Positions 35,942-36,289 of a DNA stretch of 64,000 nucleotides are shown here, in pieces; positions within the stretch are counted from its first letter, which is position 1, and the number at the start of each line of letters is the position of its first letter. The notes under the pieces are model-generated. The model did not search any database, was not told the origin of the DNA, and saw only the letters and a program-made list of their open reading frames with translations. A program made the translations under genes and the position numbers. Source of the stretch: Escherichia coli (GTDB lineage: Bacteria > Pseudomonadota > Gammaproteobacteria > Enterobacterales > Enterobacteriaceae); the NCBI RefSeq assembly GCF_041248615.1, contig NZ_CP158426.1; one strand, written 5' to 3'.

Positions 35942-36289
35942 AGCACGGAATAACACTATGCACTTACCGCTTTCCGGAACTCAGCTTGTTACCTGAGCGG
36001 TCAACAGAGCAGTCTTTCAGTGTCTGCACTTGGTTGCCACTAAACCGGAGTCATTTATCAGAAGTATATGTTCATGGAAGGATATTGTCAGCGCCAGTGA
36101 TATAAGACGGTAATGAGGATAGCCACCCCGCATGGGTTTCCTCAACACTGGTCACTGTGACAAGCGCACCATGATCGTCTTTGTATCGCTGATTGACTTT
36201 CGATAATAGAACATCTTCTGACATAAATTTTAGTACGGTAACAATTAACTAAATTTTCATGTGGTAGCACTGAATCAGGAGACTGCGTT

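What the first reader, a model, noticed from the sequence alone, without database searches (positions are those of the whole stretch)
36089..36120. 32-bp sequence repeated at two transposase-fragment junctions (36089 and 40456)
tcagcgccaRtgatataagacRgtaatKaggat occurs at 36089-36120 and 40456-40487 in the same orientation, differing at three positions and with unrelated flanks on both sides. Each copy sits where an IS fragment ends (upstream of the IstA remnant; at the truncation point of the plus-strand IS3 OrfB). It may be the solo terminal repeat of an unrecognised IS or MITE that mediated the rearrangements.
Basis: seen in the sequence. Interest (0 to 1): 0.35.

Follow-up and report, generated by a model that had tools for sequence, protein, structure and literature searches.

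The report
IS21 end repeat invaded by another IS
The repeated 33-mer is the outermost end repeat of the known insertion sequence IS21 fused to the first bases of an unnamed IS3-family insertion sequence that repeatedly inserts at that spot in IS21 ends; in this window both copies are decayed relics.

Summary
The repeat is real: 36088-36120 and 40456-40488, 33 nt, 3 mismatches, none expected by chance. It is not part of the IS3 orfB.

- **What the 33-mer is.** Its first 27 nt, plus the TG just upstream, are the left terminal repeat of IS21; copy 1 matches 29/29. The last 6 nt are the tip of an unnamed 1604-bp IS3-family IS.
- **Copy 2** is one end of a complete but decayed 1659-bp composite at 40452-42110: IS21 left repeat, the inner IS on the minus strand, then the IS21 right repeat at 42082-42110.
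- **Copy 1** is a solo stump: 29 nt of IS21 end plus 6 nt of the inner-IS tip.
- **Targeted insertion.** Related loci show the inner IS inserting about 27 nt inside IS21 ends, at both ends and in both orientations, with a 3-bp duplication. Two sister plasmids give a clean before/after pair.
- **Double hits.** When both ends are hit, istAB can be lost, leaving a 1.66-kb composite. This composite sits at many unrelated sites with 4-bp duplications.
- **52-bp scar.** A 52-bp pair of IS21 ends occurs in up to about 1,000 of 5,426 E. coli genomes.

How the composite moves is inferred, not shown.

The parts
36086..36114 (+). Copy 1: solo IS21 left terminal repeat (L1), nt 1-29 of IS21.
   Evidence: 29/29 identical to the left end of a genuine 2131-bp IS21 (L003 4004-4032), which carries istA/istB and a 4-bp duplication CTAT. 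After nt 29, IS21 continues TCACCA but the window does not.
36115..36120 (+). Copy 1: 6-nt stump (GAGGAT) of the tip of the nested IS3-family IS. The rest of that IS is deleted.
   Evidence: 5/6 match to the inner-IS tip GGGGAT; a 5/6 or better match at a fixed position has a chance probability of about 0.005 (my estimate). It does not resemble IS21 nt 30-35 (TCACCA). The same junction with longer stumps is seen in L004 (13 nt) and L002.
36134..36240 (-). DUF4222 gene fragment lacking its C-terminus, next to the stump.
   Evidence: RefSeq annotation of identical sequence. Homologues elsewhere match only window 36134-36240.
36304..36623 (+). 3' remnant of an IS21-like istA (IS21 nt 962-1280), in the same order and orientation as copy 1.
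   Evidence: 92% identity to IS21. RefSeq labels it a 'Mu transposase domain' pseudogene.
40037..40451 (+). Truncated + strand IS3-family element (orfA and the start of orfB). It forms the left flank of the composite.
   Evidence: ORF 40037-40354. Annotated as a transposase pseudogene missing its C-terminus. Intact relatives align up to about 40454 only.
40452..40482 (+). Copy 2: IS21-type left terminal repeat (L1 variant with a TGTATCA tip), the left shell of the composite.
   Evidence: 26/28 identity to IS21 nt 2-29; sequence.
40483..42081 (-). Nested IS3-family IS, a decayed copy of 1599 bp. Its 25-nt terminal inverted repeats are at 40483-40507 and 42057-42081.
   Evidence: Inverted-repeat pair I4 and pattern matches. 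It is 94.6% identical to the intact ETEC copy. tblastn against the intact 510-aa transposase needs three reading frames. RefSeq annotates it as 'IS3 family transposase, frameshifted; internal stop'.
42082..42110 (+). IS21-type right terminal repeat (R1 variant with the same TGTATCA tip), the right shell of the composite and inverted partner of copy 2.
   Evidence: 23/24 match to the IS21 right-end core, with no match in any of 100 shuffles. 26/28 identity to IS21 nt 2104-2131.

Best explanation
**What it is (shown).** The first 27 nt of the 33-mer, plus the TG just upstream, are the outermost terminal repeat (L1) of the left end of IS21. The last 6 nt are the tip of an unnamed IS3-family IS of 1604 bp. 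When intact, this IS has one 510-aa transposase ORF and 25-nt inverted repeats GGGGATGCGGACGATTTCCTGGACT.

**How it works.**
- The inner IS inserts preferentially about 27 nt inside IS21-type ends, at the left or right end and in either orientation, making a 3-bp duplication (shown in related loci).
- When both ends of one IS21 are hit by copies in the same orientation, recombination between the two copies deletes istA/istB (inferred). What is left is a 1.66-kb composite: 28 nt of IS21 left end, the inner IS, then 27 nt of IS21 right end.
- Composites lie at many unrelated sites, bounded exactly by the IS21 tips and flanked by 4-bp duplications (shown).
- They most likely moved as units through the IS21 ends, presumably using IstA/IstB from a resident IS21 (inferred, uncertain).
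- Loss of the inner IS leaves a 52-bp pair of IS21 ends (inferred).

**In this window.** Copy 2 is the left end of one decayed composite (40452-42110). Copy 1 is a stump of another such junction, truncated by a later deletion. Both are probably inert.
For: **Identity of the motif**
- Copy 1 is 29/29 identical to the left end of a genuine IS21.
- The inverted partner of copy 2 at 42082-42110 matches the IS21 right end.
- The 25-nt repeats of the inner IS abut both shells.
- The inner protein is an IS3-family transposase (NF033516, E = 8e-128; rve and HTH domains).

**Targeted insertion**
- Sister plasmids L025 and L024 carry the same IS21-like copy, without and with the inner IS in its left end. 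BLAST shows a 1604-bp insertion with a 3-nt overlap, GGT[AAT]|IS|[AAT]TC.
- The right end of that same IS21-like copy carries a second, internally deleted copy flanked by ATA/ATA.
- Strain D8 (L023) has another left-end insertion.
- Of 47 tips of the close clade examined, 43 abut IS21 end repeats or IS21 interior. Every combination of IS end and IS21 end occurs.
- Relatives with 80-95% amino-acid identity in Klebsiella indica, Kosakonia and E. albertii also sit against IS21-type ends.
- In Mangrovibacter the IS assembles as a 1604-bp contig ending exactly at GGGG.../...CCCC.

**Replacement in place**
- L018 has a composite at exactly the umuC site, orientation and duplication (CTAT) where L003 has a whole IS21.

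**Composite as a unit**
- Nine loci have 4-bp (one 5-bp) duplications at the outer IS21 tips.
- Many hits at 99.5% identity end exactly at those tips.
- No full-length IS21-like element with the ETEC-variant right end was found in 5,426 E. coli genomes.

**52-bp pair of ends**
- It is identical at unrelated loci.
Against: - Neither window copy has a target duplication, so their own history is inferred by analogy with other loci.
- Copy 1 keeps only 6 nt of the inner-IS tip.
- Purified IstA of the IS21-family member IS5376 needs two end repeats (L1+L2) for integration in vitro (PMC10122671). The composite keeps only L1 and R1, so mobilisation by IstA/IstB may not work as proposed.
- The loci examined were partly chosen because they matched the shell, so the 43/47 figure overstates the specificity.
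- A shell-free copy (L008), seemingly at one shared locus, appears in many UPEC and ST131 genomes.
- The inner IS occurs in both orientations inside the same ETEC shell variant with identical junction triplets. Neither simple model explains this without an extra inversion step.
- ISKpn38, a relative at 61% amino-acid identity, is not in an IS21 end in the one copy examined.
Confidence: 0.8

Rival explanations
1. The 33-mer belongs to one ordinary IS3-family IS with unusually long (about 53-nt) inverted repeats. Their outer half merely resembles IS21 ends, and there is no nesting.
For: Many copies at 99.5% identity are bounded exactly by the outer TGTCA tips and have direct repeats there. The outer tips carry the canonical TG...CA while the inner tips do not.
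Against: - The outer halves swap sides relative to the transposase gene (types 1 and 2).
- Copies exist with no outer half at all (L008; the 1604-bp Mangrovibacter contig).
- Copies exist with IS21 interior, including istA, directly beyond the inner tip (L023, L024).
- The before/after pair shows a 1604-bp insertion, not 1660 bp.
- The outer halves are 27-29/29 identical to the respective IS21 ends.
Confidence: 0.04
2. A 52-bp miniature IS21 (L1+R1) came first, arising by internal deletion and perhaps spreading as a MITE. The IS3-family IS targets the centre of this near-palindrome, so composites arise by a single insertion rather than by a double hit plus recombination.
For: The 52-mer is widespread and identical at unrelated loci, one of which has a 4-bp duplication. 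IS3-family elements that target palindromes are known from my own knowledge (IS1397, ISKpn1 in REP). This model easily explains both orientations inside one shell.
Against: - With the tips fixed by the L024/L025 pair (GGGG...CCCC), insertion into the 52-mer should leave ...GGTAA|IS|TAACGG.
- Most composites instead read ...GGTAAT|IS|ATAACGG (L018 and others). That is the sum of a left-end and a right-end insertion.
- Insertions into full-length IS21 ends are directly observed.
- A 52-bp element is unlikely to synapse its own ends (inference).
Confidence: 0.12
3. The motif is the 3' end of a protein-coding gene on the minus strand (...ILITVLYHWR*), kept similar by purifying selection.
For: All three mismatches fall at third-codon positions of one minus-strand frame, and the changes are synonymous (read directly from the sequence).
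Against: - The chance that three mismatches share one phase is about 1 in 9.
- The upstream sequences of the two copies are unrelated, so there is no common ORF.
- Two of the three variants (A at IS21 nt 12 and 24) are ordinary variants of IS21-type ends seen at many loci.
- The sequence is a non-coding IS end in a genuine IS21.
Confidence: 0.01
4. Each composite arose on the spot from its own full IS21 insertion, and composites never move. The 4-bp duplications would then be those of the original IS21.
For: L018 is a clear in-place replacement of an IS21. IstA of IS5376 needs L1+L2 in vitro (PMC10122671). IS21 left ends are present in 2,405 of 5,426 E. coli genomes.
Against: Eight ETEC composites at different sites share one diverged shell variant. 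No full-length IS21-like element with that variant was found in 5,426 genomes. A similar variant shell accompanies an 81%-identical relative in Klebsiella indica.
Confidence: 0.25

Closest known systems
IS21 (2131 bp, istA/istB) and its terminal inverted repeats made of direct repeats L1/L2 and R1/R2
   Same: The 29-nt core of the motif is identical to the IS21 left end, and the partner at 42082-42110 matches the IS21 right end. Tips are TG/CA. Related loci carry 4-bp duplications like the genuine IS21 in L003.
   Different: Only the outermost repeat of each end survives. There is no istA/istB between the ends and no L2/R2. A different IS fills the interior.
IS4321 / IS5075 (IS1111/IS110 family), which target the 38-bp terminal repeats of Tn21-family transposons (from my own knowledge)
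   Same: An IS whose preferred target is a fixed position inside the terminal repeat of another transposable element.
   Different: These use a different transposase class (DEDD rather than DDE), insert in one orientation and make no duplication. Here the IS is IS3-family, inserts in both orientations and makes a 3-bp duplication.
IS1397 / ISKpn1 (IS3 family), which insert into REP/BIME palindromes (from my own knowledge)
   Same: An IS3-family element with strong sequence- or structure-specific target choice and a short duplication.
   Different: Their target is a host repeat, not another IS. Those elements use the usual orfA/orfB frameshift, whereas this one has a single 510-aa ORF with an extra N-terminal HTH region.
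ISKpn38 (IS3 family)
   Same: Closest named relative: 61% amino-acid identity over the whole 510-aa single-ORF transposase, with a similar tip (GGGAAGTGCGGAC...).
   Different: The copy examined is not flanked by IS21-type ends.
IS1353 nested in IS1326 (an IS3-family IS inside an IS21-family IS, in integron In2 of Tn21)
   Same: It is a published case of an IS3-family IS lying next to or inside an IS21-family IS (PMC6737455 lists both in In2; that it is nested is my recollection).
   Different: I could not check where IS1353 sits relative to the IS1326 end repeats, or whether it is related to this IS. It remains a lead, not a test.

Membership tests
IS21 terminal repeat (L1/R1) | Sequence identity to the ends of IS21 | tested here: met
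   Copy 1 is 29/29 identical. Copy 2 is 26/28 with a 2-nt tip insertion. The partner at 42082-42110 is 26/28.
IS21 terminal repeat (L1/R1) | Terminal 5'-TG / CA-3' dinucleotides | tested here: met
   TG at 36086-36087 and 40452-40453; CA at 42109-42110.
Complete IS21 element | istA and istB lie between the two ends, and the second repeats L2/R2 are present | tested here: not met
   The interior of the 40452-42110 unit is an IS3-family IS. IS21 sequence stops after nt 29 at both window copies. Only an istA 3' remnant lies nearby at 36304-36623.
Complete IS21 element | 4-5 bp target duplication at the outer tips | tested here: not met
   In the window the flanks are TTAA/GGGG at the composite, and the stump has no partner. 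The feature is met at nine related loci.
IS3 family (inner IS) | DDE (rve) transposase with an N-terminal HTH and leucine-zipper region | tested here: met
   NF033516 at 426.8 bits against a cutoff of 160. Pfam rve, HTH_Tnp_1, HTH_21 and rve_2 domains.
IS3 family (inner IS) | orfA/orfB joined by a programmed -1 frameshift | tested here: not met
   Intact copies have one uninterrupted 510-aa ORF. Some RefSeq copies are annotated with a frameshift.
IS3 family (inner IS) | Terminal inverted repeats ending 5'-TG...CA-3' | tested here: not met
   The L024/L025 pair and the 1604-bp Mangrovibacter contig put the tips at GGGG.../...CCCC.
IS3 family (inner IS) | 3-4 bp target duplication | tested here: met
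   AAT and ATA in L024.
MITE (for the 52-bp L1+R1 element) | Short, non-coding, with terminal inverted repeats, multiple copies and a target duplication | tested here: inconclusive
   The element is 52 bp and identical at unrelated loci. Up to 1,035 of 5,426 E. coli genomes carry it. A duplication is present at one of three loci read (CAAA in L020).
MITE (for the 52-bp L1+R1 element) | Mobilised in trans by the parent transposase | not testable with these tools
   This needs a transposition assay. The 52-mers could equally be scars left at former IS21 or composite sites.
IS that targets another element's terminal repeats (IS4321/IS5075 type) | Insertion at a fixed position inside the terminal repeat of another transposable element | tested here: met
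   Insertions lie at IS21 nt 27-29 in the left end and nt 26-28 in the right end, at many loci.
IS that targets another element's terminal repeats (IS4321/IS5075 type) | IS110/IS1111-family transposase, single orientation, no duplication | tested here: not met
   The transposase is IS3-family, both orientations occur, and there is a 3-bp duplication.

The most novel reading that the evidence does not exclude
An unnamed IS3-family IS acts as a dedicated parasite of IS21. It recognises IS21 end repeats, perhaps through its extra N-terminal HTH region, and inserts between L1 and L2, which disables that end. After a double hit it replaces istAB. The result is a chimeric element with IS21 ends and an IS3-type transposase that still spreads using IS21 machinery supplied in trans. 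It leaves 52-bp scars in up to about a fifth of E. coli genomes.
Probability: 0.4. Interest if true: 0.6.

Novelty: new variant of a known kind. Interest (0 to 1): 0.4.

Why it matters
- **For this window, little.** The two 33-mers are dead junction relics in an IS graveyard at the pheV island. They explain why two unrelated IS fragments end in the same sequence.
- **For annotation.** A 1.6-kb IS3-family IS is labelled only generically in RefSeq. Its IS21-derived shell and the 52-bp pair of ends are not annotated at all.
- **For IS21 itself.** IS21 left ends occur in about 44% of complete E. coli genomes, often on plasmids. A second IS that homes into IS21 ends and deletes istAB may affect IS21 activity and drive plasmid rearrangements.
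- **For the biology of mobile elements.** One IS preying specifically on another, and producing a chimeric element that may be mobilisable, is an unusual interaction between mobile elements and can be tested by experiment.

Tried and rejected
- **Internal part of the + strand IS3 orfB:** rejected. Intact relatives diverge at 40454.
- **Minus-strand coding reading (ILITVLYHWR*):** rejected. There is no common ORF and the sequence matches an IS21 end.
- **Transposase N-terminus borrowed from IstA:** BLASTP of the 510-aa protein against IstA found nothing (best E = 1.9). Profile or structure comparison was not done.
- **Inner IS repeat resembles the second IS21 repeat (L2), which could explain targeting:** the local alignment score was reached by 98 of 500 shuffles, so this is not significant.
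- **Full-text literature searches:** the terminal sequences, 'IS21 + IS3 family + target specificity' and 'IS21 + miniature inverted-repeat' found no description of this association.
- **IS1353/IS1326:** no positional detail was found.
- **Looking for a name:** cluster look-up gave only 'IS3 family transposase'.
- **ISKpn38 and a truncated Klebsiella relative:** neither is flanked by IS21 ends.
- **Full-length IS21-like element with the ETEC-variant right end:** none found.

Full report
**1. The observation**

The degenerate 33-mer matches exactly twice in the window, at 36088-36120 and 40456-40488, both on the + strand. None of 100 shuffles gave a match. The copies differ at three positions. 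The flanks are unrelated. The window is E. coli DNA from the island next to tRNA-Phe, with an integrase at 42292-43554 followed by tRNA-Phe and yqgA.

**2. What the 33-mer is**

A BLAST of the copy-1 region against 5,426 complete E. coli genomes gave short extra hits. One was at the left boundary of a genuine IS21 inserted in umuC on a plasmid (L003).
- That IS21 is 2131 bp, carries istA and istB, and has a 4-bp duplication CTAT.
- Its left end reads TGTCAGCGCCAGTGATATAAGACGGTAAT, then TCACCA...
- Window 36086-36114 is identical to it over 29 nt and then continues GAGGAT.
- Copy 2 matches 26/28 and has a 2-nt insertion in its tip (TGTATCAG).

Downstream of copy 2 the sequence TAGGATTCGGACGATTTCCTGGACT (40483-40507) is one arm of a 25-nt inverted repeat. 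The other arm is at 42057-42081. These arms bound a minus-strand IS3-family element. RefSeq calls it 'IS3 family transposase, frameshifted; internal stop', and tblastn needs three reading frames to cover it.

Immediately beyond the far arm, 42082-42110 is an IS21 right-end repeat in the correct inverted orientation. It matches the IS21 right-end core at 23/24 positions, with no match in any shuffle.

So 40452-42110 has this structure: IS21 left repeat, then an IS3-family IS, then the IS21 right repeat.

Copy 1 keeps only that 6-nt tip (GAGGAT, 5/6 match to GGGGAT). It then joins a truncated DUF4222 gene. Longer stumps of the same junction occur in L004 (13 nt) and L002.

Intact relatives of the + strand IS3 fragment align only up to 40454.

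**3. The inner IS**

Intact copies (for example L006) encode a single 510-aa protein.
- It matches the IS3-family model NF033516 (E = 8e-128).
- Pfam finds rve, HTH_Tnp_1 and HTH_21 domains, plus an extra N-terminal HTH region.
- Public sources call it only 'IS3 family transposase'.
- The closest named relative is ISKpn38, at 61% amino-acid identity.

**4. Why it sits inside IS21 ends**

The decisive evidence is a before/after pair. Two sister ETEC plasmids carry the same IS21-like element in the same backbone.
- In L025 the left end is intact: ...GACGGTAATTCACC...
- In L024 it reads ...GACGGT[AAT]|GGGG...CCCC|[AAT]TCGCC...
- BLAST between the two loci shows a 1604-bp insertion with a 3-nt overlap.

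This fixes the inner-IS tips at GGGG/CCCC and its duplication at 3 bp. The right end of the same IS21-like element carries a second, internally deleted copy flanked by ATA/ATA. Strain D8 has another IS21 with the IS in its left end.

Across all loci fetched, 43 of 47 tips of the close clade abut an IS21 end repeat or IS21 interior. All four combinations of IS end and IS21 end occur, so both IS21 ends are hit and both orientations are used. This sample is biased, because several loci were chosen for matching the shell.

Relatives in other genera behave the same way:
- Klebsiella indica (81% amino-acid identity): both shell halves are present.
- Kosakonia (80%): the left repeat is present.
- E. 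albertii (95%): the right repeat is present.
- Mangrovibacter (71%): the IS assembles as a 1604-bp contig ending exactly at the inner tips, so the inner IS moves on its own.

A shell-free copy (L008) also exists and appears in many UPEC and ST131 genomes, seemingly at one shared locus.

**5. From invaded IS21 to composite**

L018 carries a composite in umuC at exactly the position, orientation and 4-bp duplication (CTAT) where L003 carries a whole IS21. That is a replacement of the IS21 interior in place.

The junction triplets of typical composites are ...GGTAAT|IS|ATAACGG... This is the sum of a left-end insertion (AAT) and a right-end insertion (ATA). It is what recombination between two same-orientation copies would leave. 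This step is inferred.

**6. Composites at new sites**

In ETEC and other strains the 1660-bp unit recurs at 99.5% identity with matches ending exactly at the outer IS21 tips. Nine loci have direct repeats at those tips:

| Locus | Duplication |
|---|---|
| L006 | CCTT |
| L009 | ATGT |
| L010 | CATG |
| L011 | CGAA |
| L012 | ATAGC |
| L013 | CACG |
| L016 | TGGT |
| L017 | ATAT |
| L018 | CTAT |

- The 4-bp length matches the genuine IS21 in L003 and differs from the 3 bp made by the inner IS.
- The ETEC copies share one diverged shell variant. No full-length IS21-like element with that right end was found in 5,426 genomes.
- The simplest reading is that the composite transposed as a unit through its IS21 ends, using IstA/IstB from a resident IS21. 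IS21 left ends are present in 2,405 of 5,426 genomes.

This step is inferred and carries a real caveat. Purified IstA of IS5376 needs two repeats per end for integration (PMC10122671), and the composite retains only one. Repeated conversion in place remains a rival.

One point is unexplained. The inner IS lies in both orientations inside the same ETEC shell variant, with identical junction triplets.

**7. The 52-bp pair of ends**

A synthetic query joining the left and right IS21 repeats found a 52-bp element: TGTCAGCGCCAGTGATATAAGACGGTAACGGTCAAACATCGTGGCGTTGACA.
- It is identical at unrelated chromosomal and plasmid loci, and one locus has a 4-bp duplication.
- Up to 1,035 of 5,426 genomes have a place covering at least 80% of the query. 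This is an upper bound, because some places are two pieces up to about 400 bp apart.
- It occurs on 67 of 72,556 plasmids, 64 of them Escherichia.
- It is what a deletion between the TAA triplets flanking the inner IS, or within IS21 itself, would leave. Which came first is not settled.

**8. What this means for the window**

The region 36086-42110 is a stack of IS wreckage, in this order:
- the copy-1 stump;
- a DUF4222 fragment;
- an IS21-like istA 3' remnant (36304-36623, 92% identical to IS21);
- an ISL3-family ISEc38 interrupted by IS2;
- a truncated + strand IS3-family element;
- the decayed composite;
- a phosphoethanolamine-transferase fragment.

Neither window copy has a target duplication, so deletions or recombination followed the insertions. 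Whether the IS21 ends caused those events cannot be told from sequence. Copy 1 and the istA remnant are in the order and orientation expected for one former IS21, but foreign DNA lies between them.

**9. Comparison with known systems, and novelty**

The motif itself is a known sequence, the IS21 end. The pattern around it resembles IS4321/IS5075, which target the terminal repeats of Tn21-family transposons, and IS1397/ISKpn1, which target REP palindromes. Both comparisons come from my own knowledge. This case differs in transposase family, orientation and duplication, and in producing a chimeric element bounded by another IS's ends. I found no description of it in the searchable literature, but that library is incomplete and ISfinder could not be consulted. 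I rate it a new variant of a known kind and of moderate interest. For the window itself the finding is ordinary IS debris.

Noticed in passing
window 39290-39569: There is a perfect 140-bp tandem duplication (39290-39429 and 39430-39569). Each unit contains the left end of IS2, namely its terminal repeat and the start of orfA. The IS2 copy therefore ends in two identical left ends.
   Followed up: partly
window 36672-38135 and about 38098-39569: ISEc38 (ISL3 family) is interrupted by IS2 at about 38098. Colinearity with strain 746 stops there. About 190 nt of the 5' end of its transposase gene are missing beyond the IS2, which suggests an adjacent deletion.
   Followed up: partly
window 40452-40459 and 42103-42110: Both IS21-type tips of the window composite carry the same extra 2 nt (TGTATCA instead of TGTCA). 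This matched change at the two ends was not seen at the other loci examined.
   Followed up: no
L020 2501-2552; L021 2501-2552; L022 2501-2552 (outside the window): A 52-bp element made only of the IS21 left and right end repeats is unannotated. It is identical at unrelated loci and is present in up to about 1,000 of 5,426 complete E. coli genomes.
   Followed up: partly
L003 about 4000-6140; L006 about 2995-4662; L018 about 370-2040: umuC on F-type plasmids carries a whole IS21 in L003, a composite at the very same site in L018, and another composite 10 bp away in L006. This may be an insertion hot spot for elements with IS21 ends.
   Followed up: partly
L013 about 1475-1530: One ETEC composite has a 24-nt tandem duplication of its outer IS21-type tip (TGTCAACGCCAAGATTATTGGCCG twice). 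The 4-bp duplication CACG lies outside both copies.
   Followed up: no
window 36088-36120 versus 40456-40488: All three mismatches between the two copies fall in the same codon phase and would be synonymous on the minus strand. I judged this a coincidence (about 1 in 9), since two of the three are common variants of IS21-type ends.
   Followed up: yes
window 42106-42195: A C-terminal fragment of a phosphoethanolamine-transferase gene abuts the right end of the composite. A related island (L004) has cptA and iha near a stump of the same junction.
   Followed up: no
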